Source: Pseudomonadota bacterium (lineage in GTDB: Bacteria; Pseudomonadota; Alphaproteobacteria; Rhodobacterales; Rhodobacteraceae). From it: a stretch of 24,000 bases of DNA. A model generated the notes under the pieces. The model saw nothing but the letters and a program-made list of their open reading frames with translations, was not told the DNA's origin and searched no databases. Every line of letters starts with the position of its first letter. The first letter of the stretch is position 1. The stretch covers positions 4,333 to 28,332 of the forward strand of contig JBCBRF010000025.1 in assembly GCA_039819865.1 (NCBI GenBank), read 5' to 3'. Made by a program: the position numbers and the translations under genes. Shown here one piece after another: positions 871 through 14,930 of the stretch.

Positions 871-1902
871 TCAGGCGGCGCCGGCGATGGGTTGGTCGGC
901 GTCGCTCTTGGCGGCGTCGCCCTCACGGCGGAGGACGGCGAGGATCGGCGGCGCGTCGGCGGACGCGCCGGCGGAGACGAGCGCCTGGCGGGCCTCGGCG
1001 ACGCGGCGGAGCAGCGTCTGCGCTTCGCCGAGCGTCCGGGTCAAGGCGGCCGAGGCCGCGCCCGCGACATCCGGATGAGCGCGCTTCACCGCGGCGCGGT
1101 AGGCCGCGCGCACCGCATCCACGCCCTCCGACGCGCGGACGCCCAGGGTCTGCTCGGCGGCGGAGACGGCGGCCGGGTCGGGACGGTCGAAGGCGATGCT
1201 GGCGAAGGAGCTGGCGGGCGCCGGGCCGATCATGCGGATCGCGAGCGCGCCCTCCCACTCCGCGTCGAAGCCCTCGAGCGCGGCCTCGAGCGCGGCGTCG
1301 CCGCCGCGACCGGTCAGCGCGACCACGTTCAGGATGGTCTCATCGTCGCCCTCCGGCAGACGGGCGAGGTCGACGGCGGCGGGCGCGAGGTCGAGCGCGT
1401 AGCGCGCCGCGAGGCGGGCGCGCTCGGCCTCGGAGGCCTCCTGCAGGATCCGCCCGGCGCCCGCGCGGTCGCCATCGGAGGCCGCCGCTCGCGCCGCGCC
1501 CCAAGCGGGATAGCGGGAGAGGCGCTGCAGCATCGCCTTCACCGGCGCTTTGATCAGGAGCTGGTGCTGCTCGAGATCGCCGTATTCGGACAGGCCCTCG
1601 GACAGCATCGAAGCGTTTGCGGCGAGGAAGCCCTGGAGCGCGCCGAAATCGGCCAGATCCGCGCCCGGCGCGGCCGGCAGGAGCGGCGCGACGGCGTGGG
1701 CGGCCTCGAGCGCGGCCTGGGTCTCGACCAAGGCTTTGCCGATCGCCTTGCGGGTCCGCCAGAAGCCGCCCTTGGCGGTCGGCAGGGCGAGCGCGGCGAG
1801 GCCGCGGGCGACCGCGATGTGGGCGTCGGAGCGCTCCAGCGCGGCCGAGGCCGCCACAGCGTCGGTTTCCGCCGTCACCGCCAGAAGGGTCAGGGCCGTC
1901 AT
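871..1902 (-). CDS. GvpL/GvpF-family gas vesicle protein with a C-terminal J-domain-like extension (HPD motif)
   Basis: 343-aa ORF. Residues 1-240 have the GvpF/L layout (HQLLIKAP strand, ALAIRMIGPAPASSFASI = GPxPxxxF C-terminal motif). Residues about 247-305 read AEQTLGVRASEGVDAVRAAYRAAVKRAHPDVAG..LTRTLGEAQTLL, which matches the J-domain pattern LGV..x..I..AYR.....HPD......eA...L. The HPD codons are at 1069-1077. The ATG at 1902 overlaps the upstream TGA (ATGA at 1899-1902), and GAGGAG lies upstream. Confidence 0.85.
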   Translation of the reverse strand: MTALTLLAVTAETDAVAASAALERSDAHIAVARGLAALALPTAKGGFWRTRKAIGKALVETQAALEAAHAVAPLLPAAPGADLADFGALQGFLAANASMLSEGLSEYGDLEQHQLLIKAPVKAMLQRLSRYPAWGAARAAASDGDRAGAGRILQEASEAERARLAARYALDLAPAAVDLARLPEGDDETILNVVALTGRGGDAALEAALEGFDAEWEGALAIRMIGPAPASSFASIAFDRPDPAAVSAAEQTLGVRASEGVDAVRAAYRAAVKRAHPDVAGAASAALTRTLGEAQTLLRRVAEARQALVSAGASADAPPILAVLRREGDAAKSDADQPIAGAA

Positions 1903-4187: not shown

Positions 4188-4360
4188 CAGGCGCTCCTGC
4201 GGATCCCGGCGTGAGCGCGGCCGTCCTGCTCCAGCGCGCGGGCGCGGAGACCGCGGCGGCCAAAGCGGCGGCGGGACCAGAACACGGCGACGCGGGCGTC
4301 CTCGACGACGCGACGGCGGGCGACCCGACGGGTCGGTTTTCGAGCGGCGATGATCTTCAT
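4187..4360 (-). CDS. Small Arg-rich hypothetical protein (57 aa), translationally coupled to the AAA+ ATPase. It is below the ORF-track size cutoff.
   Basis: Manual translation from ATG at 4360-4358: MKIIAARKPTRRVARRRVVEDARVAVFWSRRRFGRRGLRARALEQDGRAHAGIRRSA*. The stop TGA (4189-4187) shares one base with the ATPase ATG (4187-4185). Third positions are mostly G/C. AAGGGA lies about 11 nt upstream. No family recognised. Confidence 0.4.
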   Translation of the reverse strand: MKIIAARKPTRRVARRRVVEDARVAVFWSRRRFGRRGLRARALEQDGRAHAGIRRSA

Positions 4361-4507
4361 GGGGTTGAGCGTCCCTTGCCTGTATTGCGGCCTTTGGTTT
4401 TTCGGCCGTTTTTGTTTGGTCTCTGCAGTCGGGTCGTCGCGCCGGTTCGCCCGGTCTTTTTTGGTTTTTTTGTCGTTTGGTCGTCGGGTCGTTCGTTCAG
4501 GCCCGCC
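4361..4507 (-). promoter_or_regulatory. Unusually A-rich (on the transcript strand) 147-bp intra-operon spacer made of an imperfect duplication. Possible internal promoter, RNA processing site or RNA element.
   Basis: This is one of the few low-GC stretches on the gvp side. There is a 10-bp direct repeat GTCGGGTCGT at 4427-4436 and 4483-4492. Each copy is preceded by GTTTGGTC and by T-runs (tttggtttttcggccgtttttgtttggtc versus ttttttggtttttttgtcgtttggtc). On the minus strand this gives repeated ACCAAA/GACCAAAC motifs. The minus strand has no ATG or GTG here. Confidence 0.45.
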
Positions 4508-4756
4508 TCAGCCGGCGCGGCCCTGCCTCTGGATGTCGCGGAGCCGGGTGAGGAGCTTCAGCTCCGCCTCCTCATATTCCTCCTCCGAGATCTCGCCGGC
4601 GTCGAGCATTTGCTCGAGGACCAGGATCTGACGCTTGATCTCGGCGGGGTCGTTCATCTGCTCGAGCGCGTGGTCGTGGATCTTCCGTCCGATCCACAGC
4701 GCGGTGTGGAGCGGGGCCGTGATCGGCAGGGTCAGAAGCGTTGAGAGCAGGCCCAT
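4508..4756 (-). CDS. gvpG: Gas vesicle protein GvpG
   Basis: 82 aa: MGLLSTLLTLPITAPLHTALWIGRKIHDHALEQMNDPAEIKRQILVLEQMLDAGEISEEEYEEAELKLLTRL. It has the hydrophobic N-terminus plus the GEISEEEYEE helix characteristic of GvpG. GAAGGAG SD upstream. Confidence 0.9.
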   Translation of the reverse strand: MGLLSTLLTLPITAPLHTALWIGRKIHDHALEQMNDPAEIKRQILVLEQMLDAGEISEEEYEEAELKLLTRLRDIQRQGRAG

Positions 4757-4782
4757 GGCGGGCTCCTTCGATGGGGCGGGGT

Positions 4783-5637
4783 TCAGCCCGCGAGGGCGGC
4801 GGGCTCGACCGCGTTGGGGGCGGCCCAGGCGAGCTGGAGCGAGACGAAGCTGTAGGCCGGGCCTGGCCCGACGATCTTCACCGTCAGGCGCCCCGGCGCC
4901 TCGGCCTCGACGGCCTCGAGCGCGGCGACGAGATCGGCCTGGGCGACGCGGTCGAGCAGGGCGTCGGCCTTCAGGACCATCATCTCATCCTCCGGCGCGC
5001 CGAAGGCGAGCGAGCGGGTCAGCGGTTCGAGGCGCTCGATCAGGCGGTGGCGCTCCTCGGTGCGCTTGGTCTCGAGCGCGGCGTCGACCTTCCGGCCGAG
5101 CTCGATGCGCTGGTAATGGGTCTCGGTCGCGGAGCGGGCGGCGAGGGCCTTGTAGGCGCTTTGCAGCTCGGGCCGGGCGGCCACGACCTCGCGCATCGCG
5201 GTCTCGCGGTCCCAGGAGACCTTGATCCCGCACTCGACGGCGCCGGCCAAATCGTCGAGGGCGGCCAACAGGGGATCCTCGTTGGCGGCGATGGTGGCGC
5301 GGATGCGGTCGACCTCCGCCGTGATCAGGCCGAAGCGCATCGGCAGAACGTCGGCGCGGGCCATCAGGGTCTCGAGCGCCTTGGCGTGGCCGAGCATGTT
5401 GCGCCGCGTGGAGAGCACCTCGTCGACGTCGATCGGGCTCGCGATGACGGTGAGCGGGCCGCACGCGACCAGAAAGGGCTCGTCGCCGGGGGCGGAGACC
5501 GGCTTGAACGCCAGATCGAGATCGGCGCCGGCGCGGGCGACGGCGTAGATGTAGACGTTGCCCTCCGCGCCGGGTTCGACGGCCTGGACGGCGGGCGGGG
5601 TCGCGGTGTCGGTCTCGATCTCGGTATTGGCGGTCAT
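4783..5637 (-). CDS. gvpF: Gas vesicle protein GvpF (GvpL/GvpF family)
   Basis: 284 aa: VYIYAVARA..., VLPMRFGLI, ECGIKVSWD, RLTVKIVGPGPAYSFV. These are canonical GvpF/L motifs. Sits immediately upstream of gvpG. Confidence 0.92.
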   Translation of the reverse strand: MTANTEIETDTATPPAVQAVEPGAEGNVYIYAVARAGADLDLAFKPVSAPGDEPFLVACGPLTVIASPIDVDEVLSTRRNMLGHAKALETLMARADVLPMRFGLITAEVDRIRATIAANEDPLLAALDDLAGAVECGIKVSWDRETAMREVVAARPELQSAYKALAARSATETHYQRIELGRKVDAALETKRTEERHRLIERLEPLTRSLAFGAPEDEMMVLKADALLDRVAQADLVAALEAVEAEAPGRLTVKIVGPGPAYSFVSLQLAWAAPNAVEPAALAG

Positions 5638-5645
5638 CGGCGGCC

Positions 5646-6341
5646 TCAGAAGCGTTGATCGTAGGCGGGCGGCCGCTGCGCGTCGGCGCGGCGCGGGATG
5701 CGGATCTCGAGGATGCCGTTGATCAGGCGGGTCTCCGCCCGCTCGCGGACGGCGTCCTCGTCGATGTCGGCGGGCAGCCGCGCCTCGCCGCGGAACTTGC
5801 GCGCGCCGGCGGTCTCGATCGCGAGCATCGGGCCCTCGGCGCGGAGCACGACGTCGTCCGGCGCGACGCCCGGCAGTTCGACCACGGCGACCCAGGCGTC
5901 CGCCTCGTCATAGACGTCGAGGACGGCTTCGCGCACGCGCTCCGGCGCGGGGCCCTGCGCGACGCTTTCGCCGCGGTCCTTCAATTCAAAATCGTTCGCT
6001 CCGGAGGCGTCGTCCTGGTCGGGGCGGATCGGACGGGCGCGCACGCCCCAGGAGGCGGTCACGCCGCCTTTCGCCACCGCGTCGCCGTCGCGGGCGCGTT
6101 TCTCCAACTCGCCGGCCAGGGTGTGGAGCGCGCCCGCGAGGCCGCCCGCCACGCCTTGCGCGGCGGTCTGCACGCTGTCGAACAACCCGCTCAGGCGCTG
6201 GCCGATTTCGTCGACGGCGGCCTGGCCCGTCAGGGTGTCGGCGCCCGAGCCGCCGGCGCCGGACGTCTCCGCGCCCGCGCTCGACCCGGCCGTTTTGTCG
6301 GCGTCGGAGGCGTCCGTTTGGTCGTCACGCGTATCGGTCAT
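5646..6341 (-). CDS. Hsp20/alpha-crystallin-domain protein (GvpH-like) with a disordered Gly/Ala/Asp-rich N-terminus
   Basis: 231 aa. The C-terminal portion VLDVYDEADAWVAVVELPGVAPDDVVLRAEGPMLAIE...RLINGILEIRIPRR fits the alpha-crystallin domain pattern (LPGV...NGVLEI.iP). AAGGAGAG SD upstream. Confidence 0.85.
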   Translation of the reverse strand: MTDTRDDQTDASDADKTAGSSAGAETSGAGGSGADTLTGQAAVDEIGQRLSGLFDSVQTAAQGVAGGLAGALHTLAGELEKRARDGDAVAKGGVTASWGVRARPIRPDQDDASGANDFELKDRGESVAQGPAPERVREAVLDVYDEADAWVAVVELPGVAPDDVVLRAEGPMLAIETAGARKFRGEARLPADIDEDAVRERAETRLINGILEIRIPRRADAQRPPAYDQRF

Positions 6342-6357
6342 GTCGGCTCTCCTTCGC

Positions 6358-6765
6358 TCAGACGCCGAGCTGCTGCAGGCGCTTTTCGAGGATCGCGAGG
6401 CGGCCGCGCAGCTCGCGGTTCTCCTGGGTCAGAACGGCGAGGCGGGCAGGGTCGACGGTCTCGATCGGCGCCGCGATCGGCGGGGCCGGCGGCTCCAGCC
6501 GCGGCGCGCCTTCGGCGCTTTCGAGCGACCCGTGGTGGAAGCCGGCGCCGCCGGTCAGCGAGGGATCGTGGGCCCACCAGTCGATGCCCATCTCGATCGC
6601 CTTATCGACCGTGGTGATCAGCAGCCGGAGCTTGACGCTCAGCAGCTCGATGCCGACCAGCGAGACCGTGACGTCGCCCGCGATCACGACGCCCTTGTCG
6701 AGCACCCGCTCGAGCACGTCGGCCAGGCTGTCGCTGTGGATCGGGCTGTGGATGGCGTGGGACAT
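6358..6765 (-). CDS. gvpJ: Gas vesicle protein GvpJ (GvpA/J/M family)
   Basis: 135 aa: SLADVLERVLDKGVVIAGDVTVSLVGIELLSVKLRLLITTVDKAIEMG is the GvpA/J core. The longer C-terminal extension is typical of GvpJ rather than GvpA. Confidence 0.9.
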   Translation of the reverse strand: MSHAIHSPIHSDSLADVLERVLDKGVVIAGDVTVSLVGIELLSVKLRLLITTVDKAIEMGIDWWAHDPSLTGGAGFHHGSLESAEGAPRLEPPAPPIAAPIETVDPARLAVLTQENRELRGRLAILEKRLQQLGV

Positions 6766-6789
6766 TGGGTCCTCTCACGCCGGCGCGGG

Positions 6790-7047
6790 TCAGGCGACGG
6801 CGTCGTTCTCGAAACGGGAATGCTTGCGCAGACGCCGGTAGCCGGTCAGGCCGCCCTCTGCGTCCAGCTCGTACTGGTAGGTGGTCAGCAGGTCGTCGTC
6901 GCCGAGGCGGGCCTTGCTCTCGAGCACGTCGACCTCGACGATCCAGCCGTCCTCGCGCTTTTCGCACCGAACGATGCTGTCGAAGGCCTGGCCGGTCATC
7001 TCGTCGGAGAGCTCGCGGGCGAGGCGGGTGACGTCGCGCAGATTCAT
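6790..7047 (-). CDS. gvpO: Gas vesicle protein GvpO
   Basis: 85 aa: ...EMTGQAFDSIVRCEKREDGWIVEVDVLESKARLGDDDLLTTYQYELDAEGGLTGYRRLRKHSR. This matches the GvpO pattern (DGW.v.vEv.E..R.p...D.l..Y.v.lD..G.l..YrR). Confidence 0.85.
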   Translation of the reverse strand: MNLRDVTRLARELSDEMTGQAFDSIVRCEKREDGWIVEVDVLESKARLGDDDLLTTYQYELDAEGGLTGYRRLRKHSRFENDAVA

Positions 7048-7062
7048 CGGATGGTCCTTTCG

Positions 7063-7314
7063 TCAGGAGCTGTGCGCCGCGCGGTCGTCAGCCGCCTGGA
7101 GCATCTGGTTGAGAAGCCGCACGCGGGCGGCGAGCACGTCGAGCTGGCGCTCCGCCTTCAGACGGCGCTGGTTGATCATGCCGAGGTCGCGCTCGATGCG
7201 GTCGCGCTCGTATTCGAGGCGGACCAGTTCCGCGGCGATCTCGGGCCGGGTCCGAGGCTTTCGCCGCGCGAGCGAGCTCGGACGGGTCGGCACATGGGGC
7301 ATGGTGCGCTTCAT
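7063..7314 (-). CDS. Small basic coiled-coil protein, possibly GvpV-like, translationally coupled to gvpN
   Basis: The track ORF 7063..7626 overlaps gvpN out of frame. The plausible start is the ATG at 7314-7312, which forms ATGA with the gvpN stop (7313-7311). Product is 83 aa: MKRTMPHVPTRPSSLARRKPRTRPEIAAELVRLEYERDRIERDLGMINQRRLKAERQLDVLAARVRLLNQML. A short basic N-terminus plus heptad coiled coil after gvpN resembles my recollection of GvpV, but this was not verified. Confidence 0.6.
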   Translation of the reverse strand: MKRTMPHVPTRPSSLARRKPRTRPEIAAELVRLEYERDRIERDLGMINQRRLKAERQLDVLAARVRLLNQMLQAADDRAAHSS

Positions 7315-8309
7315 GCGGCTTTCTCCGTCGGCGGCGCCGGGCAATGCTCGCGGATCGCGGCGCGCAGGCGCTCGAAGAACTTGCTGCGGGCGTCGGCGAC
7401 CGAGGCGACGTCGTCGCGATCGGAGGGCGCGCGGGACTCGAGCGCGTCGAAGCAGAGCTGGACGAAACGCTCGTCGGCGCAGTTCGGGCGCAGGCCCTGG
7501 TCGGCGGCGATGCGGGCGATCAGGATGGCGGTGCGCATCGAGGGCGGGGCGGCGCGGCCCATCAGGACGCCGTCGGCCTGCGCAGCGGCGCGGAGCGCGC
7601 GGACCAGCATCACGATCGGCCGGCAATGCTCGGGCGCGAGGCGGGAGCGGGCGGCGACGACGCCGAGCTCCGTTTCCGCGTCGAAGTACGAGAGATCGAA
7701 GGTGATCATCCGGTCGAGGAGCGCGTCCTGCGGCGCCTTGACCGCGGCGTATTCGGCCGGGTTCGAGGTGAAGATCGCGCGGAACTCGGGATGCGCCTCG
7801 ATCACCCGGCGCTCGCGGCCCGGGGTCGAGAGGACGAGCACGCCCTCTTCGAGCGCAGCGAGCAGCGGGTTGTTGGCTTCGGGCGGGGAGCGGGTGAACT
7901 CGTCATAGACGAGCGTGTAGCCCTCCTCCATCGCGACCGTGAGCGCACGGTCCTCCCAAAGCTTGGAGGTCGCGCTCTCGGTCTTCGTCACGTTGTGGAT
8001 GAAGCGGTCGTGGACCCGCTTGGTGCGCTCGCCCACCGCCTCGCCCACGAGATTGGCCCCGGTGAACCAGCCGTCGCCGGCGATCGTTACGGTGGGTCGA
8101 TCCAGAGCGGCCGCGAGCTGCATCGCGAGGGTCGTCTTGCCGGCGCCCGCGGGACCGCGGAAATGCACGGCGACCCCGGCGCGCAGATAGGCCAGCGCCC
8201 GGCTCTCGATCGAAGCGATCGCGGCGTCGCGGAACAGATCCGCACGGGGCTTCAGCCAGCGCGCATCGGCGCGGAGGCCTTCGGCTTGCGGCTTTTCGGC
8301 GGCGCTCAT
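7311..8309 (-). CDS. gvpN: Gas vesicle protein GvpN (AAA+/MoxR-like ATPase)
   Basis: 332 aa. Walker A is FRGPAGAGKTTLA and Walker B is TLVYDEFTRS. Also NPLLAALEEGVL, FRAIFTSNP and ALLDRM, which is the typical GvpN signature. Confidence 0.93.
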   Translation of the reverse strand: MSAAEKPQAEGLRADARWLKPRADLFRDAAIASIESRALAYLRAGVAVHFRGPAGAGKTTLAMQLAAALDRPTVTIAGDGWFTGANLVGEAVGERTKRVHDRFIHNVTKTESATSKLWEDRALTVAMEEGYTLVYDEFTRSPPEANNPLLAALEEGVLVLSTPGRERRVIEAHPEFRAIFTSNPAEYAAVKAPQDALLDRMITFDLSYFDAETELGVVAARSRLAPEHCRPIVMLVRALRAAAQADGVLMGRAAPPSMRTAILIARIAADQGLRPNCADERFVQLCFDALESRAPSDRDDVASVADARSKFFERLRAAIREHCPAPPTEKAA

Positions 8310-8456
8310 GGGTTCGAAGCCTCTTCGCTCTCGGTCGGTGCGGCGCGAGGACGCGCCTTCTCGCCATAAGCGTTAACGAGCGAGGCTTTCCCAAGTGTAA
8401 ACGCCCGGGAGGAAGATTTGGAATTTGGTGGGGATTGGGGCGCGCGCGCCGCGGCG

Positions 8457-8948
8457 TCAGGGCGCGGCGATATCGAACAGCCGCGCAAGGGCGGTCCGAT
8501 AGTCGTCCACCATGCCGAGCGCCTCGTCGAGATAGGCCTCCCAGCGCGCTTCGAGATCGGCGTCGGGGTTCGAGGGCTCGGCGATTGCGAGCGGCGTCGG
8601 GTCGTGGGCGGCGAGGGCGGCGCGGACGGCGTCCGCCGTCTCGGCGACGAAGGCCGCGTCGCAGCGGCGCAGGGCGCCCTCGCCCATCGGGCGACGGCCT
8701 CGCACGGCGGCGGCGATGCGTCGGTCGCTGGTCAGGATCAGATCCAGCTCATGCCAGAACGGCGCGTCGCGCCCGTCGCGGGTGTCGGCGGCGGCGACGA
8801 CGACGCCCTCGACACGGAGCGGCCGGAGGCCGTGGCGCGGCAGGAGCAGGGTGCGAAAAGGATCGCTCGGCGACGCCGTCTCGTCGCACGGTCCGCCCCG
8901 AACCGGGACGTGGTCCGGCGCGACGAGGATCTGCACGGAGAAGCTCAC
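8457..8948 (-). CDS. Hypothetical protein (about 163 aa) between the HhH-tail protein and gvpN
   Basis: The 5' part of track ORF 8457..9143 overlaps the upstream gene. A GTG at 8948-8946 lies 5 nt after the upstream stop (8954-8956), with AAAGG upstream. Product: VSFSVQILVAPDHVPVRGGPCDE...APFWHELDLILTSDRRIAAAV...LEARWEAYLDEALGMVDDYRTALARLFDIAAP. High GC3. No family recognised. Confidence 0.55.
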   Translation of the reverse strand: MSFSVQILVAPDHVPVRGGPCDETASPSDPFRTLLLPRHGLRPLRVEGVVVAAADTRDGRDAPFWHELDLILTSDRRIAAAVRGRRPMGEGALRRCDAAFVAETADAVRAALAAHDPTPLAIAEPSNPDADLEARWEAYLDEALGMVDDYRTALARLFDIAAP

Positions 8949-8953
8949 GACGC

Positions 8954-9865
8954 TCAGCCTTTCTTGGCGCTCGCGTCCGCGCTTTTGGCGGAGCCGGCGC
9001 CCTTGTCGGCGGATTGGGCGAAGGCGATCCAGCCTTCGAGATCGAGCAGCGCGCCGATTTCGCCGAGCTTTTCGCGGAGCGTCGCGGCGTCGGCGGCGGC
9101 GAGTTCTTCGAGGTTGGCGACGCCCGCCTCGCTCAGCATCCATTCGAGGCCCGGACCGGCGCCCGGCAGGCCGGCGAGGTCCACGACGACCTGGGGCTTC
9201 GCGGCGCGGCGCGCGCGGGGCTTTTTCGGCGCGACGCGCTTTGGCGTGGCGGGTTTCGAGGCGGCGGGTTTGGAGGCGACCTGCTCGGGCTCGGCGGGCT
9301 TCGTGGCGACGCGCTTCGCGCGGGCCGGCTTTTCCACGGTGGCGTCGACCGCGGCCTCGGCCGGCTTGGCGGCGGCGCGCTTGCGGCGGCGCGGCGGCGC
9401 CGTCGTCTCGGCTTGCGCCTCGGATTGAGCGTTGGCCGCGTCCGCCTTGGCTTTGGCGCTTGCGGCGCGGGAACGGCGCTTTGCGGGCGCCCGACGCTGG
9501 GCGGCCGGCTCCGGAGCGGGCTCGGCCTCCGGAGCGGCATCCTGCGCAGGCTCAGCAAGGTTGTCGACGGCTTCGTCCACCGAGGCGTCCGTCTCCGGCG
9601 CGGTTCCGGCGGCCTCTTCCGCGAAAGCGCGGGCCGCGGCGGACGCGGACAGCGTCTCCTCCATCGCGCGACCGACGGTCTCAACAGCGGCGGTCGCGGT
9701 CTCGAACGCCGTCTCGACCAGATCGGCGGCGGCCTCGACGCCCGCATCCACGGCCGCGCCGCCGCGGCCCGGTCGGCGACGCGCCGCCCTCAGCTCCGCC
9801 AGCTTGGCGCGCGCTTCGCGGCGAACCTCTTGGACGCGAGACTTGTAAGAGGGGGCGTTGCTCAT
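8954..9865 (-). CDS. Ala/Pro/Lys/Glu-rich low-complexity protein with a C-terminal helix-hairpin-helix-like domain, immediately downstream of gvpA
   Basis: 303 aa. The N-terminal basic helix is MSNAPSYKSRVQEVRREARAKLAELRAARRR. The central part has KPA-type short repeats (AAKPAEAAV..ATKPAEPEQVASKPAASKPATPKRVAPKKP). The C-terminus VVDLAGLPGAGPGLEWMLSEAGVANLEELAAADAATL resembles the GIGPxLExxLxxxGI HhH module common in alphaproteobacteria. Codon usage is consistent with coding. Confidence 0.7.
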   Translation of the reverse strand: MSNAPSYKSRVQEVRREARAKLAELRAARRRPGRGGAAVDAGVEAAADLVETAFETATAAVETVGRAMEETLSASAAARAFAEEAAGTAPETDASVDEAVDNLAEPAQDAAPEAEPAPEPAAQRRAPAKRRSRAASAKAKADAANAQSEAQAETTAPPRRRKRAAAKPAEAAVDATVEKPARAKRVATKPAEPEQVASKPAASKPATPKRVAPKKPRARRAAKPQVVVDLAGLPGAGPGLEWMLSEAGVANLEELAAADAATLREKLGEIGALLDLEGWIAFAQSADKGAGSAKSADASAKKG

Positions 9866-9908
9866 GGCGTCGGACCGCTCGTAAATAAAAAACCCACAAA
9901 CGAATGCG

Positions 9909-9946
9909 CGGCGGCGGTCTGGACGCGTCGGCCCGCACCGCCGCCG
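9909..9946 (-). terminator. GC-rich hairpin just downstream of gvpA; putative partial terminator or attenuator
   Basis: A perfect 10-bp stem pairs CGGCGGCGGT (9909-9918) with ACCGCCGCCG (9937-9946), with an 18-nt loop. On the minus-strand transcript it is followed, after about 14 nt, by GGGUUUUUUAUUU (plus strand 9881-9893). Because the U-tract is spaced from the stem, this is not a textbook intrinsic terminator. Confidence 0.45.
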
Positions 9947-9951
9947 AACAA

Positions 9952-10164
9952 TTAGGCGGCCTGCGGATCGACCGTAAGGCCGATGGCCTCGGCGTATTTC
10001 AGCCAGGTCTCGACCGACGCGATGACCGCGCGAGCCTCGATCGCGATCAGCTCGATGCCGACCAGCGCGACGCGCACGAACGCGTCGATGACGACGCCTT
10101 TGTCCAGGATGCGGTCGACGACCTCGGCGAGGCTGCTCGACGCAACGCTTTTCTCAATAGCCAT
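9952..10164 (-). CDS. gvpA: Major gas vesicle structural protein GvpA
   Basis: [63 protein letters not shown] (70 aa) is near-canonical GvpA. The ATG at 10164 has a GAGGAA SD 7 nt upstream. The track ORF start at 10206 would add a non-conserved 14-aa extension. Confidence 0.95.
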
Positions 10165-10441
10165 GGGGTTTTCCTCAGAGCAGGGGCTGTTCACTCGCCG
10201 CGACAAATCCGCCGACGGCGTGCATGACCCTGCGTCGTGATCGTTAAGAAGTTGCTGAAGCTTGCGGCGAAAACACGCTGGATAATGAAGATTTTACTCT
10301 TTTTTTCGGCGCGAACAGACCGGTATTCGGGCGGCGCGCCGTATTTGTGAAAACGCGATTAACGCAATTCGTCCGTTGTTTGCTCTCCGTTAAGGGCCCG
10401 CGTGCGATGCGACGCTCCGACGCATTCGTTCGGAGCCGACC
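10165..10441. promoter_or_regulatory. Divergent gvpA / tal-pyp control region
   Basis: 277-bp intergenic stretch, locally AT-enriched (ggataatgaagattttactctttttttc). It contains a tandem direct 9-mer AACGCGATT/AACGCAATT (10352-10369), CGTTAA/TTAACG motifs at about 10242, 10357 and 10389, and a 7-bp hairpin GCTCCGA (10414-10420)/TCGGAGC (10430-10436) that includes the tal GGAG SD. The promoters themselves were not identifiable by eye. Confidence 0.6.
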
Positions 10442-12103
10442 ATGGGCCTGTCCCTCGCATCCCTCATCGACGAAACGACGCCCGAGACGGCGTCGCCGGC
10501 CCTCCTCGAGGATGGGTTAGGGCTGTCCGCCGCCGATACGGTGGCGCGGGGCGCGCGCATCATCGCCATCGGACCCGCGGCCTGGGAGCGGATCCGCGCG
10601 GCGCAGGCGCGGCTGGCGCGGGCGATCGCGGAACGGCGCGTCGTCTATGGCGTGACGACCGGTTTCGGGCCGCTCGCCGATCGGCTGGTGCGGCCCGAGG
10701 ATGTCGAGACGCTGCAGCGGAACCTAATCTACCACCTCGCCACCGGCGTCGGAGCGCCGCTGTCCTGGGAAGCGGCGCGCGCCACCGCGCTGGCGCGGCT
10801 CTGCTCCATCGCGCAGGGCTGGTCGGGGGCTTCGGACCCGATGGTCGAGGCCCTGGTCGCGCTGTTGAACTCCGACCTCGCGCCCTGGATCCCGGAGAAG
10901 GGCACGGTCGGGGCGAGCGGCGATCTGACGCCGCTCTCTCATCTTGCGCTGGCGCTTATGGGCGAGGGCGCGTTCATCGATCGCGCCGGGAACCGGATCG
11001 AGGGCGGCGCCGGGCTCGCGCGGATCGGCGTTCCGCCGTTGACGCTCGCCGCGCGCGACGGGCTCGCGCTGGTGAACGGCACGGCGGCGATGACCGGGAT
11101 CGCGGTGCTGAACGGCGCGCGCGCGGCGGCGCTGCTGGAGTGGGCCGAAGCGCTGACCGGCCTGCATGCGGAGCTCTTGCGCGGGCGCTCAGAGGCTTGG
11201 GACCCGGCGCTCTCGGCGGCGCGGCCGCATCCTGGGCAGGTCGCGGCGTCCGATCGGCTGCGCGCGCGGATCGAGGGCGCGCCTCGGATCGACGCGACGC
11301 GGGCGGCCGAGCGGATTCTGCCGCAAAGCGGCGACGCTCCGCCGCAAGACGCCACGCCGCTTCAAGACCCCTATTCGATCCGCTGCGCGCCGCAGATCCT
11401 CGGCGCCGCGCGGGACGCGCTCTCGTGGCATGACGCGGTGATCGAGCGGGAACTGAACAGCGCGTCGGACAATCCGATCTTCGCCGAGGACGCGGCGATC
11501 GCAGTCCATGGCGGCAACTTCATGGGGTGCCATGCGGCGCTGGCGTCGGACGCGCTCAAGAATGCGGTCGTGCTGACGGCGGTGCTTTCGGAGCGCCAGA
11601 TCGCGCGACTGACGGACGAGAAGCGCAATGGCGGGCTGCCGCCCTTCCTCAATCGCGGGCGCGTCGGGCTGGAGAGCGGCCTGATGGGCGCGCAGGTGAC
11701 GGCCAGCGCCCTGGTCGCGGAAATGCGGGCCTTCGGCGGGCCGGCCTCGACGCAGTCGATCTCGACCAACGGCGCGAACCAAGACGTCGTCAGCCTCGGC
11801 ACGATCGCGGCGCGCGGCTGCGCGGACATCCTCGAGGACGCGGCCCGCGTGCTGGCGATCCAGGCCATCGCCGTCGCGCAGGGCGCCGATATCGTCGGGC
11901 GCGAGGCGCTGTCGCCCGCCGGCGGCGCGCTCGCCGAGCGCATCCGAAGCGTCGTGGCCCCTTTGACGTCCGATCGTCCACTCCACGCGGACATTGAGCG
12001 GCTTTCACAGGAAATTGTAGAACAAACCGCCGGACAAGACTGCGAATTCTACAAAAATCCGACCCACGCCAGCCTAGGGAAGAATTCACACCAGGCTCGA
12101 TGA
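10442..12103 (+). CDS. tal: Tyrosine ammonia-lyase (aromatic amino acid lyase, MIO-dependent)
   Basis: 553 aa. The Ala-Ser-Gly MIO triad in GTVGASGDLTPLSHLA is at 10913-10921. Also VYGVTTGFGPLA, QDPYSIRC and NGANQDVVS. The selectivity-switch position reads NLIYHLATG (His98 at 10733-10735). This is the His-Leu state associated with tyrosine rather than phenylalanine specificity in Rhodobacter TAL. Sits next to pyp. Confidence 0.9.
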   Translation: MGLSLASLIDETTPETASPALLEDGLGLSAADTVARGARIIAIGPAAWERIRAAQARLARAIAERRVVYGVTTGFGPLADRLVRPEDVETLQRNLIYHLATGVGAPLSWEAARATALARLCSIAQGWSGASDPMVEALVALLNSDLAPWIPEKGTVGASGDLTPLSHLALALMGEGAFIDRAGNRIEGGAGLARIGVPPLTLAARDGLALVNGTAAMTGIAVLNGARAAALLEWAEALTGLHAELLRGRSEAWDPALSAARPHPGQVAASDRLRARIEGAPRIDATRAAERILPQSGDAPPQDATPLQDPYSIRCAPQILGAARDALSWHDAVIERELNSASDNPIFAEDAAIAVHGGNFMGCHAALASDALKNAVVLTAVLSERQIARLTDEKRNGGLPPFLNRGRVGLESGLMGAQVTASALVAEMRAFGGPASTQSISTNGANQDVVSLGTIAARGCADILEDAARVLAIQAIAVAQGADIVGREALSPAGGALAERIRSVVAPLTSDRPLHADIERLSQEIVEQTAGQDCEFYKNPTHASLGKNSHQAR

Positions 12104-12259: not shown

Positions 12260-12655
12260 ATGGACGAACTCGGAACTTTGAAGAAGCACGCCGGACGCTA
12301 CGAGTTTTCCTTTCCGGAGCTCGAGCTGTGCGTGCGCGGCCCCTACGCCGAGTGGGTGCTGCAGGCGGCCGCCGAAATCATGGCCAAAGCGGAAAAGCTG
12401 CGCAGCGAAGGCCATCTCGACGAGCTCGAGATGCTGAAGGAGTTCGGCGAGGCCTCCGAGGTCGACGTCGACGCCGCGCAATTCGAGGCGAACGCCCGCT
12501 TCGAAGCGCTGCCGCAATGCGTCGTGTCGCTTGGAAGCCTCGACTACCGCTGGGTCGCCGGCGGCCAAGAAGACGACGCGGCGCCGATGACGCGCATCGT
12601 CGACATGTCCCTCACCCGCAACGACACCTTCCTCCGCGACGAACCGCAGGCCTGA
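12260..12655 (+). CDS. Hypothetical acidic protein (131 aa) immediately upstream of pyp
   Basis: MDELGTLKKHAGRYEFSFPELELCVRGPYAEWVLQAAAEIMAKAEKLRSEGHLDELEMLKEF...RIVDMSLTRNDTFLRDEPQA. Third-position GC is consistent with coding. AAGGAG lies about 12 nt upstream. The opposite-strand ORF 12086..13018 is a shadow frame. No family recognised. Confidence 0.65.
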   Translation: MDELGTLKKHAGRYEFSFPELELCVRGPYAEWVLQAAAEIMAKAEKLRSEGHLDELEMLKEFGEASEVDVDAAQFEANARFEALPQCVVSLGSLDYRWVAGGQEDDAAPMTRIVDMSLTRNDTFLRDEPQA

Positions 12656-12697
12656 GCGCCGCACGTCCGAAGCCATCAAAAGACGGAGATCTGAACC

Positions 12698-13072
12698 ATG
12701 GAAATCATCCCGTTCGGCGCCAACGACATCGACAACATCCTGCAGCGTGAGCCCCACCGGGCCGAGGCGCTGCCGTTCGGCGCGATCCTGCTGAGCCGTC
12801 AGGGCAAGATCCTGAAGTACAACGCCGCCGAGGGCCTGATCGCCGGCCGCAGCGCCGGCGACGTCATGGGCAAGGACTTCTTCAACCAGATCGCCCCGTG
12901 CGCCAAAGGCAAGCGGTTCCACGGCGAGTTCTTGAAGTTCGCCCAGACCGGCCAGGTCAACACGATGTTCGACTACACCTTCGAGTACAAGATGAAGCCG
13001 GTGAAGGTGCGGATCCACATGAAGTCGAACGCTGGCGGTGAGAACTGCTGGCTGTTCATCAAGCGCGCCTAA
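12698..13072 (+). CDS. pyp: Photoactive yellow protein (PAS-fold xanthopsin)
   Basis: 124 aa: MEIIPFGANDIDNIL...LPFGAILLSRQGKILKYNAAEGLIAGRS...FFNQIAPCAKGKRFHGEF...NTMFDYTFEYKM.PVKVRIHMK...WLFIKRA. It aligns along its whole length with Halorhodospira PYP. The chromophore Cys (Cys68, TGC at 12899-12901), Tyr41, Glu45 and Arg51 are conserved. The Thr50 equivalent is Ala. GGAGA SD 8 nt upstream. Confidence 0.97.
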   Translation: MEIIPFGANDIDNILQREPHRAEALPFGAILLSRQGKILKYNAAEGLIAGRSAGDVMGKDFFNQIAPCAKGKRFHGEFLKFAQTGQVNTMFDYTFEYKMKPVKVRIHMKSNAGGENCWLFIKRA

Positions 13073-13154
13073 GGTCGCCGAGAGCGCGTCGGCTCGGCCG
13101 GCGCGCCCTCAGCCCCTCCCAAGGCTCCGGCCACCGTCCGTCAAGGAGGATCCC

Positions 13155-13667
13155 ATGAACGCCTACGATATCGGCGCGCAGCAGCCCGTCGACCATCTCG
13201 ACGCCGGCGTCGAGCACATTCTGCGCCGCTCCGGCGCCCGCCCGGTCTCGTTCCGCGGCGTGCAGATCTGCTCGGCCATGAGCTACACCGTCGGCACGCC
13301 GCTCTGGTACGAGATCAACTTGTACCGTCTTCAGGATCAGAGCTTCGTCGTCGACGTCCGCATGTTCACGAAGTCGGACGAAGACAGCGACAAGTTCACC
13401 GTCCAGCACGTCGCGAGCTTCGATGAGGCGGTCAGCGCCCTGGAAGCGTACGATGCGGCCGCAGACGTCCGCGTGAACGTGGCGCTCGACGACCCGACCG
13501 CATCGCTCGCCGACCTGACCTTCCAGGCTCTGGCGGTGCGCGCGCGCGTCGAGGAGGCTCGCGCCCAGTATCGCGGCCTGGTCAGCCAGATCCTGTCGGA
13601 TCTCGAGCAGGTCAGCGTCGAGGCCGCCGGCGGCCAGCGCCTGGTCAGCCACGAGATGGTGGCCTGA
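13155..13667 (+). CDS. Hypothetical protein (170 aa) between pyp and the coumarate ligase
   Basis: The ATG at 13155 is preceded by a strong AAGGAGGA SD. The track ORF start at 13038 overlaps the pyp 3' end. Product: MNAYDIGAQQPVDHLDAGVEHILRRSGARPVSFRGVQICSAMSYTVGTPLWYEINLYRLQDQSFVVDVRMFTKSDEDSDKFTVQHV...RARVEEARAQYRGLVSQILSDLEQV. The stop is 2 nt before the ligase ATG. No family recognised. Confidence 0.7.
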   Translation: MNAYDIGAQQPVDHLDAGVEHILRRSGARPVSFRGVQICSAMSYTVGTPLWYEINLYRLQDQSFVVDVRMFTKSDEDSDKFTVQHVASFDEAVSALEAYDAAADVRVNVALDDPTASLADLTFQALAVRARVEEARAQYRGLVSQILSDLEQVSVEAAGGQRLVSHEMVA

Positions 13668-13669
13668 GC

Positions 13670-14839
13670 ATGCTCCGACGCGCCGAGATCGACCGGCTGG
13701 TCGCATCTCTTGTCGCAGATGAAATCGGCCGCGCGCGGAAGCGTGCGGTCGATTTCGCCGTTTGGGGGGCCTGGACCCCTGAGACCACGGTCGACGAGGA
13801 TGGGGTTGGCGCCGACAGCCTGACCCGGCTCGAGGTCGTGGCGCGCGTGAACGAGTTCTTTCACCTGCATGAGAGCGGCGTCGAGGACTATCTCCTGGTG
13901 CGCCGGACGCTCGGCGACTGGAGCGAGATCGTCGCCGAGGGGCTGAAACTGGCCGGCGAGCGGATCACCTTCCGCAGCTCCGGCAGCACCGGCGCGCCGA
14001 AGACGGCGACCCATTCGATGGCCGATCTGACAGCCGAGATCGATGCGGTCTGGGAGCGGATCGGCCCGCGCGGGCGGATCCTGAGCTGGACGCCGCCGCA
14101 TCATATCTACGGGTTCCTGTTCACCGCTCTGCTGGCGGCTCGACGCGACCGGCCGGTGGTCGAGATGCGCGCCAAGGCGCCGTCGCTGCGCGCCGTCGCG
14201 GATGGCGATCTGCTGGTCGCGACGCCGTTTCAATGGGCGCTCTGCCTGAAGGCGGGCGGCGTGGACGCCGAGGACGTCGTCGGATTGAGCGCCGCGGCGC
14301 CGGCCTCTGAGGACATCTGGTCGGGGGCCGCCTCGGCGGGGATCCGGTTGGTCGAGATTTACGGCTCGAGCGAGACCGCGGGCGTCGGCCTGCGCGAGGC
14401 GGGCGACGCGCCGTTCGAGCTGCTGCCGCGCTGGTCGCGCGGCCCAGGGGACGCACAGCTGCGCGATGCGGGCGGGGCCCTGATCGACGCGCCGGACGCG
14501 CTCGACTGGGAGGTGGATCGACGGTTTCGCCCGGCCGGACGGCGCGACGGCGTGGTCCAGGTGGGCGGCGTGAACGTCGATCCGGCGATGGTCCGCGCCG
14601 TGCTCCAGGACATTGATTGGGTCGAAGAGGCCGCCGTGCGCCTGGACGAGAACGGCGCGGACGGCGGCCGGCTGAAAGCGTTTCTCGCAACCCGCGGCGC
14701 ACCGCCTGAAGAAGAGGCGCTTCAGCGCGTCGTTCAGCATTGCGCCGAGCGACTGGAAGGGCCCGCGCGACCGGCGTCGTTCCGACTGGGGTCCGATCTC
14801 CCGCGAAACGCGATGGGCAAACTGGCCGACTGGACCTGA
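13670..14839 (+). CDS. pcl: p-Coumarate (4-hydroxycinnamate) ligase of the PYP chromophore pathway; short adenylate-forming enzyme with an N-terminal carrier-protein-like segment
   Basis: 389 aa. It has the AMP-binding P-loop SSGSTGAPK, plus IYGSSETAG and a terminal K in NAMGKL. The N-terminal 90 aa contain GVGADSLTRLEVVARVNEFF (Ser50 AGC at 13817-13819). The genetic context, tal-pyp-pcl, matches that described for Rhodobacter and Halorhodospira. Confidence 0.85.
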   Translation: MLRRAEIDRLVASLVADEIGRARKRAVDFAVWGAWTPETTVDEDGVGADSLTRLEVVARVNEFFHLHESGVEDYLLVRRTLGDWSEIVAEGLKLAGERITFRSSGSTGAPKTATHSMADLTAEIDAVWERIGPRGRILSWTPPHHIYGFLFTALLAARRDRPVVEMRAKAPSLRAVADGDLLVATPFQWALCLKAGGVDAEDVVGLSAAAPASEDIWSGAASAGIRLVEIYGSSETAGVGLREAGDAPFELLPRWSRGPGDAQLRDAGGALIDAPDALDWEVDRRFRPAGRRDGVVQVGGVNVDPAMVRAVLQDIDWVEEAAVRLDENGADGGRLKAFLATRGAPPEEEALQRVVQHCAERLEGPARPASFRLGSDLPRNAMGKLADWT

Positions 14840-14878: not shown

Positions 14879-14899
14879 TGGGCGCTGGGCTGACATCAA

Positions 14900-14930
<31 letters not shown>

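What the first reader, a model, noticed from the sequence alone, without database searches (positions are those of the whole stretch)
13155..13667. Second unrecognised ORF (170 aa) between pyp and pcl, tightly coupled to pcl
It has a strong AAGGAGGA SD, and its stop lies 2 nt before the pcl ATG, which suggests co-translation with the chromophore ligase. The sequence looks like a mixed beta N-terminal domain (WYEINLYRLQDQSFVVDVRMF) plus a C-terminal amphipathic helix (RARVEEARAQYRGLVSQILSDLEQ). It matches nothing I recognise. It could be a chromophore-loading accessory factor for pCA transfer to Cys68, or a PYP signalling partner.
Basis: inference. Interest (0 to 1): 0.75.

Follow-up and report, generated by a model that had tools for sequence, protein, structure and literature searches.

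The report
Unknown protein family beside bacterial light sensors
The 170-aa ORF is a real, conserved gene from an undescribed protein family that sits beside small light-sensor genes lacking an output domain (photoactive yellow protein, and bacteriophytochromes in other bacteria), usually in gas-vesicle islands, which makes it a testable candidate for the missing signalling step after these sensors rather than a chromophore-loading helper.

Summary
ATG 13155 to TGA 13665-67 encodes 170 aa. AAGGAGGA lies 4 nt upstream and the pcl ATG 2 nt downstream. An independent assembly calls the same gene, and GC3 is 0.90.

ORF170 matches no Pfam, NCBIfam or PDB sequence, and Foldseek finds no significant PDB fold. 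It does have a family: 651 cluster representatives among 1.84 billion proteins.

In 58 alphaproteobacterial species loci, pyp lies upstream in 55 of 55 evaluable cases. pcl lies directly downstream in 57 of 58. The usual order is PBP-like, pyp, Y2, Y1 (ORF170) and pcl, next to gvp genes.

Remote full-length homologues (hhalign 99.9%) occupy the same slot in bacteriophytochrome operons: HO, output-less BphP, orf112, Y, bilin reductase. One lies beside a LOV-GGDEF-EAL gene. A few such modules have no gvp genes within the roughly 6 kb of flank fetched.

So the family follows output-less photoreceptors, not p-coumaric-acid chemistry.

ORF170 is unrelated to the ORF131 family. That family matches the published PYP-binding protein PBP in length, adjacency and ε280.

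The window holds a second family member, Y3, at 8457-8948 (-) inside the gvp operon.

The best reading is a photoreceptor-proximal signalling or adaptor subunit. The mechanism is inferred, not shown.

The parts
13143..13150 (+). Shine-Dalgarno-like AAGGAGGA, 4 nt before the ORF170 ATG
   Evidence: Read directly from the sequence.
13155..13667 (+). ORF170, the 'Y1' member of an undescribed family. It has a disordered N-terminus, a five-stranded antiparallel sheet carrying the signature L-R-R-x-G-x-R-P-x-x-F-x-G ... W-Y-E-I-N-L-Y-R, a short helix, and a long C-terminal helix.
   Evidence: No hit in Pfam, NCBIfam or PDB.
12698..13072 (+). pyp, a Rhodobacter-type photoactive yellow protein of 124 aa with Cys68. 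It is the photoreceptor that ORF170 follows.
   Evidence: TIGR02373 1.4e-52. It lies upstream of Y1 in 55 of 55 evaluable species loci.
12260..12655 (+). ORF131, inferred homologue of the published PYP-binding protein PBP (RCAP_rcc01067). It is unrelated to ORF170.
   Evidence: The family's modal length is 141 aa (28 members are exactly 142 aa) and its modal composition is 2 Trp + 3 Tyr, which equals ε280 1.55e4. PBP is reported as 142 aa, ε280 1.55e4 and adjacent to pyp. hhalign against the ORF170 family gives probability 0.3%. AF2 model.
13670..14839 (+). pcl, the p-coumarate ligase. Its start is 2 nt after the ORF170 stop.
   Evidence: TIGR02372 3.8e-101, above the cutoff. Sequence.
10442..12103 (+). 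tal, the tyrosine ammonia-lyase and first gene of the tal-orf131-pyp-ORF170-pcl string
   Evidence: Lyase_aromatic 8.4e-151.
8457..8948 (-). Y3, a second and divergent member of the ORF170 family. It lies inside the gvp operon between orf303 and gvpN. The likely start is GTG 8948, 5 nt after the orf303 stop.
   Evidence: The family HMM scores 48 bits over HMM positions 18-138. GC3 is 0.88. Start context. The start codon is inferred.
8954..9865 (-). orf303, a low-complexity protein with a helix-hairpin-helix-like C-terminal domain. It recurs as a neighbour of Y3-type genes.
   Evidence: Sub-threshold HHH_5 hit at E 0.09. The C-terminal domain is found in 43 loci, and 34 of these have a same-strand family ORF within 900 bp.
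871..10206 (-). Gas-vesicle gene cluster, transcribed divergently from the tal-pcl string: gvpA 9952-10206, gvpN 7311-8309, a gvpJ/A-like gene 6358-6765, an Hsp20/GvpH-like gene 5646-6341, gvpF/L genes 4783-5637 and 871-1902, and a CDC48-type AAA gene 1899-4187.
   Evidence: Pfam hits. GvpA translation.

Best explanation
ORF170 is an expressed, conserved gene. It is the 'Y1' member of a protein family that has not been described, and that family belongs to the gene module of photoreceptors lacking an output domain.

In Alphaproteobacteria the module reads PBP-like, pyp, (Y2), Y1, pcl, and it usually abuts a gas-vesicle cluster. In other Proteobacteria a homologous Y gene sits in the string heme oxygenase, PAS-GAF-PHY phytochrome, orf112, Y, bilin reductase.

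Shown here: the gene is real, the family exists, and the synteny with three kinds of photoreceptor holds.

Inferred: the only thing these contexts share is a stand-alone light sensor, usually with gas-vesicle genes nearby. So Y most likely acts just downstream of the sensor as a signalling or adaptor subunit, not in p-coumarate chemistry.

Speculative mechanism: the conserved Arg- and aromatic-rich face of the beta-sheet binds a partner. That partner could be the lit photoreceptor, or its specific binder (PBP in PYP loci; orf112 or STAS in phytochrome loci). The long C-terminal helix pairs Y with itself or with a paralogue (Y2 or Y3). Light-dependent capture or release of Y would then set the output, most often gas-vesicle production and hence buoyancy.
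For: The gene is real.

Family size and conservation: 18 close homologues with 15 invariant residues, 651 representatives, and a signature kept across 157 members.

Synteny: in 58 species loci, pyp is upstream in 55 of 55 evaluable cases, pcl is downstream in 57 of 58, and a PBP-like gene is present in 51.

Other photoreceptors: the P0155 clade sits in the BphP operon. This is seen in L067-L069 and in all 16 metagenome loci, with BphP/orf112 or STAS upstream and bilin reductase downstream wherever the contig reaches. These BphPs carry only PAS_2-GAF-PHY. P0140 sits beside a LOV-GGDEF-EAL gene (GKNCRILQG motif) and gvp genes. Homology between the PYP-linked and BphP-linked clades runs full length (hhalign 99.9%, E 3e-32, 151 columns).

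The family follows the sensor more closely than gvp. L054, L055 and L080 have the sensor and Y but no gvp genes within the fetched flanks.

Paralogy and natural Y2-Y1 fusions (P0025, P0030) fit hetero-oligomers.

Literature: PYP's downstream chain is an acknowledged gap (PMC12826048 abstract). Rc-PYP does signal through a small adjacent protein, PBP (bioRxiv 10.1101/2021.06.01.446672).
Against: No experiment and no interaction prediction links Y to any photoreceptor. The argument is guilt by association.

In both module types Y sits directly upstream of the last chromophore-synthesis gene (pcl or bilin reductase), often overlapping it. That also fits a maturation role.

Y3 in the window and Y158 in L069/L070 lie inside gvp operons next to gvpA, so a purely gas-vesicle function is possible.

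The contexts sampled came from relatives of ORF170 (the top 150 of 651 representatives, with many short contigs). Family members away from any photoreceptor could have been missed.

Fold comparison was limited to Foldseek against PDB, so a known fold may still be recognisable.
Confidence: 0.5

Rival explanations
1. Holo-photoreceptor maturation factor. Y escorts the activated chromophore, or holds the apo-protein, so that the cysteine-linked chromophore (pCA thioester in PYP, bilin thioether in BphP) is installed efficiently.
For: Y1 is translationally coupled to pcl here and overlaps pcl in L001 and L003. In BphP operons Y overlaps the bilin-reductase gene (L067 6001-6495 against 6461-7183). 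In L065 Y is divergent from a pcl homologue with no pyp within 12 kb.
Against: pCL and bilin reductase are unrelated enzymes with unrelated substrates. Phytochromes are generally held to attach bilin autocatalytically (general knowledge). The H. halophila pyp-pcl-tal operon has no Y (PMC12826048). TAL plus pCL suffice for holo-PYP in E. coli (memory, Kyndt 2003). pcl is on the opposite strand in 4 loci. There is no similarity to lyases, PPTases or MbtH-like proteins.
Confidence: 0.15
2. Gas-vesicle regulator or accessory protein. Y proteins act on gvp expression or assembly on their own, and photoreceptor genes merely share the same island.
For: gvp genes occur in 58 of 89 loci, and in nearly all loci of at least 10 kb. 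Y3 lies between orf303 and gvpN in the window's gvp operon. Y158 lies directly upstream of gvpA in L069 and L070. Y3 pairs with an HhH-like, possibly DNA-binding, protein.
Against: Sensor-plus-Y modules exist with no gvp genes within the fetched flanks: L054, L055 (PAS-GGDEF-EAL, TAL, PYP, Y, pcl) and L080 (BphP operon followed by AraC and ABC-transporter genes). Y1 is always inside the photoreceptor string, not the gvp string. There is no hit to any Gvp Pfam family.
Confidence: 0.2
3. ORF170 is the already published PYP-binding protein (PBP) and is therefore known.
For: It is a small acidic protein (pI 4.6) encoded directly next to a Rhodobacter-type pyp. PBP is described as the gene adjacent to Rc-pyp.
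Against: PBP is 142 aa with ε280 1.55e4 (2 Trp + 3 Tyr), and its helices are predicted toward the N-terminus. The ORF131 family matches: its modal length is 141 aa with 28 members exactly 142 aa, 87 of 203 members have 2W+3Y, and the long helices at 30-82 follow three short N-terminal strands. The ORF170 family does not match: 0 of 147 members are 142 aa, ORF170 itself has 1W+6Y, and its helices are C-terminal. The two families are unrelated. In most Rhodobacterales Y1 is not adjacent to pyp, because Y2 intervenes. The R. capsulatus sequence itself could not be retrieved.
Confidence: 0.03
4. Spurious ORF in GC-rich DNA.
For: High-GC DNA generates many long ORFs. Several overlap this region.
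Against: GC3 is 0.90. There are many synonymous substitutions against the orthologues. Hundreds of homologues exist. The AF2 model is confident. An independent gene call agrees.
Confidence: 0.01

Closest known systems
PBP, the PYP-binding protein of Rhodobacter capsulatus (RCAP_rcc01067; Kim et al. 2021, bioRxiv 10.1101/2021.06.01.446672 / PCCP 23:17813)
   Same: Both are small, acidic, cytoplasmic proteins encoded in the Rhodobacter-type pyp module, and both are candidate downstream partners of a stand-alone PYP.
   Different: There is no sequence relationship (hhalign probability 0.3%) and the predicted architectures differ. By length, adjacency, ε280 and helix placement, PBP corresponds to the upstream ORF131 family. 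PBP-like genes are absent from the sphingomonad-type and BphP-type loci that still carry Y. Binding of Y to PYP is untested.
Output-less photoreceptor with an adjacent partner protein (for example BLUF PixD with PixE, or short LOV and STAS systems). This comparison is from general knowledge.
   Same: It has the same logic: a sensor without an effector domain relies on a separately encoded small protein in the same operon.
   Different: Y is unrelated to response regulators, STAS or any described partner. One Y family serves loci with three different sensor types.
The BphP / phycocyanobilin-synthesis / gas-vesicle island of Bradyrhizobium sp. ORS278 (BRADO1262; Jaubert et al. 2007, as cited in PMC3899966)
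   Same: It is a known precedent for a phytochrome, HO, bilin reductase and gvp genes on one island. This is the context in which the remote Y homologues are found.
   Different: I have seen no report of the small ORFs (orf112, Y) there. I could not check whether that island carries a Y gene.
MbtH-like proteins (small partners of adenylating enzymes)
   Same: Both are small genes tightly coupled to an adenylate-forming ligase gene.
   Different: There is no Pfam match, the size and fold differ, and Y occurs in operons with no adenylating enzyme.
PUR-alpha / Whirly-like and WGR-type beta-sheet-plus-helix domains
   Same: The best local Foldseek hits to the N-terminal sheet plus helix are Borrelia Pur-alpha (3nm7; probability 0.9, 61 columns, TM 0.51 on the target) and, more weakly, the PARP2 WGR domain.
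   Different: E-values are 0.1 to 1 and query TM is 0.27 or lower. ORF170 is acidic overall (pI 4.6), and the long C-terminal helix has no counterpart. This is a lead, not a classification.

Membership tests
PBP (PYP-binding protein, RCAP_rcc01067) | Sequence homology to PBP. The ORF131 family served as proxy because the R. capsulatus sequence is shown only as an image. | tested here: not met
   hhalign A1 against A4: probability 0.3%, 14 columns.
PBP (PYP-binding protein, RCAP_rcc01067) | 142 residues, ε280 1.55e4 M-1cm-1, helices toward the N-terminus | tested here: not met
   ORF170 has 170 aa and 1W+6Y (ε280 14,440), with its helices at the C-terminus. 0 of 147 family members are 142 aa long.
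PBP (PYP-binding protein, RCAP_rcc01067) | Light-dependent binding to PYP (pUV* state) | not testable with these tools
   This needs SEC, transient-grating or pull-down experiments with purified proteins.
New 'Y' family defined here (photoreceptor-module protein) | Full-length match to the family profile, with the signature L-R-R-x-G-x-R-P-x-x-F-x-G / W-Y-E-x-N-x-Y / L-E-x-Y-D-x-x-x-D / C-terminal L-R...Y...L helix | tested here: met
   202 bits against the family HMM. All signature positions are present.
New 'Y' family defined here (photoreceptor-module protein) | Encoded within a stand-alone photoreceptor gene string (pyp, or PAS-GAF-PHY BphP) | tested here: met
   Window: pyp, then an 82-nt gap, then ORF170. 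Family.
MbtH-like proteins | Match to the Pfam MbtH model, about 70 aa with conserved Trp residues | tested here: not met
   No Pfam hit at E<=1 other than noise. None in 68 diverse members.
Described gas-vesicle proteins (GvpA/J/M, F/L, G, K, N, O, H) | Match to the corresponding Pfam models | tested here: not met
   The neighbouring genes do hit these models, so the models work on this genome.
PUR-alpha / Whirly-like fold | Significant structural superposition of the beta-beta-beta-beta-alpha repeat | tested here: inconclusive
Chromophore lyases / phosphopantetheinyl transferases (maturation enzymes) | Sequence or fold similarity to CpcS/T/E/F-type lyases or AcpS/Sfp PPTases | tested here: not met
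   No Pfam or NCBIfam hit. None appears among 692 Foldseek PDB matches at E<=10 in the listed top 50.

The most novel reading that the evidence does not exclude
The Y family is the missing common transducer for output-less bacterial photoreceptors. The same small protein, as homo- or hetero-dimers of paralogues, would receive the signal from PYP (through PBP), from PAS-GAF-PHY phytochromes (through orf112 or STAS) and possibly from LOV proteins. It would convert that signal into control of gas-vesicle formation. That would make it a previously unrecognised light-to-buoyancy pathway shared across Proteobacteria, and the first defined downstream element for single-domain PYPs beyond PBP.
Probability: 0.3. 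Interest if true: 0.85.

Novelty: new variant of a known kind. Interest (0 to 1): 0.68.

Why it matters
How single-domain PYP passes its signal on has been open since the protein became a model photoreceptor. The latest survey of pyp operons still calls this 'an important gap' and lists only pCL, TAL, GGDEF/EAL, kinases and BLUF as neighbours (PMC12826048). The only biochemical partner so far is PBP, for Rc-PYP.

The work here adds a second, unrelated and more widely conserved small protein in the same module. It also shows that homologues sit in phytochrome operons, whereas that survey found no phytochrome gene in any pyp operon. This yields a concrete, cheap experiment: add Y to the existing Rc-PYP/PBP assays, and delete it in a gas-vesicle-forming Rhodobacterales strain.

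It also suggests that light control of buoyancy in heterotrophic and phototrophic Proteobacteria uses a shared component.

The novelty grade is conservative. The protein family itself matches nothing described. The kind of thing I think it is, a partner protein for a sensor without an output domain, is a known kind.

Tried and rejected
1. Domain libraries gave only noise. This covers Pfam and NCBIfam on ORF170 and Pfam on 68 diverse family members (ZapC_N, DUF7668, antigen I/II, single-member hits).

2. PDB by sequence gave nothing for the profile of the 18 ORF170 homologues or for ORF131.

4. I tried to identify RCAP_rcc01067 directly. The supplement shows the sequence only as an image. Cluster look-ups and a third homologue search seeded from Rhodobacter sp. 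KR11 did not list a R. capsulatus entry. I fell back on length, ε280, adjacency and secondary-structure descriptors.

5. tblastn of ORF170 and of P0155 against 72,556 plasmids found no match.

6. The promoter and terminator scan of 10100-15200 was at background. There is no terminator between pyp, ORF170 and pcl, and one terminator-like hairpin at 15048-15062 after pcl.

7. I considered modelling PYP-Y or pCL-Y as linked chains.

8. MCP and GGDEF neighbours were checked as possible outputs. They are present in only 10 and 9 of about 90 loci, so they are not core.

9. The ideas that Y is a phosphopantetheinyl transferase for the carrier-like N-terminus of pCL, or an MbtH-like protein, were rejected. 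There is no similarity, and Y is present in BphP operons.
Full report
**1. The observation**

Window 13155-13667 (+) is an intact 170-codon ORF.
- AAGGAGGA lies at 13143-13150, 4 nt before the ATG.
- The TGA is at 13665-13667.
- The pcl ATG follows at 13670, after two bases.

- pyp 12698-13072: TIGR02373 1e-52, Cys68.
- pcl 13670-14839: TIGR02372 4e-101, above the cutoff.
- tal 10442-12103.

A gas-vesicle cluster on the minus strand (871-10206) is transcribed divergently from tal-orf131-pyp-ORF170-pcl. A NIT-HAMP-MCP gene follows pcl.

The mechanical ORF list extends the frame to GTG 13038. Three things support ATG 13155: the SD, the conserved N-termini of the closest homologues, and an independent gene call on another assembly (L090).

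Codon-position GC is 0.71/0.40/0.90, like the neighbouring genes. The antisense ORF shows the mirrored pattern expected for the opposite strand of a coding frame. Against the 74%-identical orthologue there are as many synonymous-only as amino-acid-changing codon differences. The ORF is a real gene.

**2. The protein**

ORF170 has no match in Pfam or NCBIfam. A profile of its 18 closest homologues finds no PDB sequence. None of 68 diverse relatives hits any Pfam family consistently.

AF2 with an 18-sequence alignment gives a confident model, pLDDT 84.8 and pTM 0.74:
- disordered residues 1-19;
- five antiparallel strands, 20-86;
- a short helix, 89-98;
- one long helix, 118-159.

The protein has a family. 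There are 18 hits in the word-indexed search. A profile search gives 651 representatives at E<=1e-3 among 1.84 billion proteins.

Across 157 members the conserved signature lies mainly on the sheet and the last helix. It reads L23, R25, G27, (R29), P30, F33, G35; W51, (Y), E53, Y57; D79; L96, E97, D100, D104; A125, L128, R129, Y139, L142, L147.

**3. Synteny with pyp and pcl**

A scan of one genome per GTDB species found 58 loci, all Alphaproteobacteria. Most are Rhodobacterales. The rest are Beijerinckiaceae, Bosea, Parvularculaceae and Sphingomonadaceae. The closest is a Neomegalonema MAG.

| Feature in the 58 species loci | Count |
|---|---|
| pyp upstream on the same strand | 55 of 55 evaluable |
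| pcl directly downstream | 57 of 58 (53 same strand, 4 opposite) |
| ORF131-like gene upstream of pyp | 51 |
| tal within the flanks | 12 |
| 500 bp or more between pyp and Y1 | 51 of 55 |

In the 51 loci with a wide pyp-Y1 gap, the gap holds a further gene. Its product carries the same L-R-R-x-G-x-R-P-x-x-F-x-G hairpin and matches the family HMM weakly. I call it Y2. The window belongs to the minority without Y2.

Two database proteins are natural Y2-Y1 fusions (P0025 and P0030). Some loci carry another strong copy convergent with pcl (L008, L011, L016, L072).

**4. The same family beside other photoreceptors**

This result changes the interpretation. I looked up the contexts of remote family members.

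*Bacteriophytochrome operons.* The P0155 clade lies in a conserved operon. It reads BphP(613 aa), STAS, heme oxygenase, BphP(509 aa; PAS_2-GAF-PHY only), orf112 (a coiled-coil-like protein), Y, then a ferredoxin-dependent bilin reductase.
- L067 continues with an MCP, gvpN, gvpO and gvpA.
- L069 and L070 carry three family members, one directly upstream of gvpA.
- A metagenome scan with this clade returned 16 loci. Wherever the contig reaches, each shows BphP/orf112 or STAS upstream and bilin reductase downstream.

*A LOV locus.* P0140 is divergent from a true pcl homologue (40% identity). It abuts a LOV-GGDEF-EAL gene (GKNCRILQG motif) next to gvpK, gvpF/L and gvpA. No pyp lies within 12 kb.

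The PYP-linked and BphP-linked clades are full-length homologues (hhalign 99.9%, E 3e-32, 151 columns).

*Gas-vesicle genes.* They occur in 58 of 89 loci, and in nearly all loci of at least 10 kb. Three long loci have the sensor and Y but no gvp genes:
- L054, from Rhodovulum;
- L055, from Sphingomonadaceae, with PAS-GGDEF-EAL, TAL, PYP, Y and a convergent pcl;
- L080, a BphP operon followed by AraC and ABC-transporter genes.

The family therefore follows stand-alone photoreceptors more closely than it follows gvp. It does not follow p-coumarate chemistry at all.

**5. A second copy in the window**

A family HMM run over six-frame ORFs finds a 48-bit match at 8466-8939 (-). It lies between orf303 (8954-9865) and gvpN.

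Its likely start is GTG 8948, 5 nt after the orf303 stop, with AAGAAAGG upstream. I call it Y3.

Most Rhodobacterales loci have an equivalent Y3, transcribed divergently from the PBP-like gene.

The C-terminal domain of orf303 has sub-threshold helix-hairpin-helix similarity. It recurs in 43 loci, and 34 of these have a same-strand family ORF within 900 bp.

**6. Relation to the known PYP-binding protein**

Kim et al. (bioRxiv 10.1101/2021.06.01.446672) showed that Rc-PYP binds PBP after UV excitation. The complex forms as PYP·PBP2 and then (PYP·PBP2)2. PBP is the product of RCAP_rcc01067, the gene adjacent to pyp.

PBP is described as follows:
- 142 residues and 16 kDa;
- a dimer;
- pI 3.9;
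- ε280 of 1.55e4;
- helices predicted toward the N-terminus.

The sequence is given only as an image, and I could not retrieve it.

| Descriptor | PBP (published) | ORF131 family | ORF170 family |
|---|---|---|---|
| Length | 142 aa | modal 141 aa; 28 members of exactly 142 aa | 0 of 147 are 142 aa; ORF170 is 170 aa |
| Trp/Tyr content | ε280 1.55e4, which equals 2W+3Y | 2W+3Y in 87 of 203 (ε280 15,470) | ORF170 has 1W+6Y |
| Position relative to pyp | adjacent | directly upstream | usually separated from pyp by Y2 |
| Helices | toward the N-terminus | long helices at 30-82, after three short N-terminal strands | C-terminal |

The reported pI of 3.9 is lower than my family median of 4.6 for ORF131 relatives. 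It is still closer to that family than to the ORF170 family (median 5.0).

The two families are unrelated. So ORF131 is the PBP homologue. This is an inference, though a strong one. ORF170 is something else.

Neither recent survey of PYP neighbourhoods mentions these small ORFs. One of them states that no pyp operon encodes a phytochrome (PMC12826048, section 8; PMC9664959).

**7. How it most likely works**

Shown: the gene is real, the family exists, it has a fixed place in PYP and BphP gene strings, it is often paralogous, and it usually lies near gvp genes.

Inferred: Y acts next to the sensor.

The sensors involved all lack an effector domain. This holds for the single-domain PYP and for the 509-aa PAS-GAF-PHY protein. 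The exception is the single LOV-GGDEF-EAL locus, where the adjacent sensor carries GGDEF and EAL domains. Each sensor class brings its own small companion: PBP for PYP, and orf112 and STAS for BphP. Y is the shared element.

My best model, at confidence about 0.5, is a signalling or adaptor subunit.
- The conserved Arg- and aromatic-rich sheet face binds the lit sensor or its binder.
- The long helix mediates homo- or hetero-dimerisation with Y2 or Y3.
- Light-dependent capture or release then sets the output, usually gas-vesicle formation.

A partner-switch version is attractive but entirely speculative. In it, PBP2 holds Y in the dark, and PYP* sequesters PBP2 and frees Y.

**8. Rivals**

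*(a) Maturation factor for Cys-linked chromophores, about 0.15.*
- For: Y sits directly before, and often overlaps, the last chromophore-synthesis gene in both module types.
- Against: the two enzymes are unrelated. H. halophila manages with pyp-pcl-tal alone. pcl is on the opposite strand in four loci. From memory, TAL plus pCL suffice in E. coli.

*(b) Gas-vesicle regulator independent of the sensors, about 0.2.*
- For: Y3 and Y158 lie in gvp operons, and Y3 has an HhH-like partner.
- Against: sensor-plus-Y modules exist with no gvp genes in the fetched flanks, and Y1 always lies inside the sensor string.

*(c) ORF170 is PBP, about 0.03.*

*(d) Spurious ORF, about 0.01.*

**9. Verdict**

The protein family is undescribed and matches nothing known. 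The role I assign it, a partner of an output-less photoreceptor, is a known kind of arrangement, hence the conservative novelty grade.

Interest is fairly high. The finding gives a specific, cheap test on a long-standing open question, and it links PYP and phytochrome gene modules through a shared component.

Noticed in passing
window 12260-12655 (+): The 'first unrecognised ORF' (131 aa) belongs to a family whose length (mode 141 aa, with 28 members of 142), Trp/Tyr content (2W+3Y, ε280 15,470) and position next to pyp match the published PYP-binding protein PBP of R. capsulatus. The AF2 model (pLDDT 74) has three strands, two long helices and more strands. There is no significant PDB fold match, only a weak HicB-like N-terminus.
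   Followed up: partly
window 8457-8948 (-): This is a divergent paralogue of ORF170 (Y3, 48 bits to the family HMM). It sits inside the gas-vesicle operon between orf303 and gvpN. Its likely start is GTG 8948, 5 nt after the orf303 stop.
   Followed up: partly
window 8954-9865 (-): orf303 has an Ala/Pro/Lys-rich low-complexity body and a C-terminal domain with sub-threshold helix-hairpin-helix similarity. That domain recurs in 43 related loci, usually next to a Y3-type gene. It may be DNA-binding.
   Followed up: partly
window 13670-13975 (+), the pcl N-terminus: The first ~100 residues of this PYP-type pCL carry a conserved G-x-D-S-L motif (GADSLTRLEVVARVNEFF). It has sub-threshold similarity to the phosphopantetheine-attachment (PP-binding) domain, at E 0.07 here and 0.004 in L030. 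This hints at a carrier-protein-like N-terminal domain in an enzyme usually described as a plain CoA ligase.
   Followed up: partly
L067 1215-7183; also L069, L074, L075, L077, L080, L085-L088: A conserved operon is found in bog and lake metagenomes. It reads BphP(613 aa), STAS, heme oxygenase, BphP(509 aa, no output domain), orf112 (coiled-coil-like), a Y-family protein and a ferredoxin-dependent bilin reductase. In L067 it is followed by an MCP and gvpN/O/A.
   Followed up: partly
L065 4650-12498 (and L066): In this locus a Y-family gene is divergent from a pcl homologue (40% identity to the window pCL). It abuts a LOV-GGDEF-EAL gene, a 965-aa coiled-coil-like ORF and gvpK, gvpF/L and gvpA. 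No pyp lies within 12 kb.
   Followed up: partly
proteins P0025 (350 aa) and P0030 (300 aa): These are single ORFs that join a Y2-type and a Y1-type domain through a Pro/Ala-rich linker. They may be natural fusions that hint at a Y2-Y1 heterodimer, or they may be gene-call read-throughs.
   Followed up: no
window 10442-12103 (+): tal sits between gvpA and orf131 here. Only 12 of 58 related species loci have tal within 6 kb, and its position and strand vary. So tal is a mobile part of the module.
   Followed up: partly
window 15095-17692 (+) and 20619-22019 (+): A NIT-HAMP-MCP chemoreceptor lies directly after pcl, with a terminator-like hairpin at 15048-15062 between them. A PAS-GGDEF protein lies further on. 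MCP or GGDEF genes are present in only about 10 of the related loci each.
   Followed up: partly
window 1899-4187 (-): A two-ring CDC48-type AAA+ ATPase (762 aa, with a CDC48_N domain) is embedded in the gvp cluster. It is also seen in many related loci.
   Followed up: no
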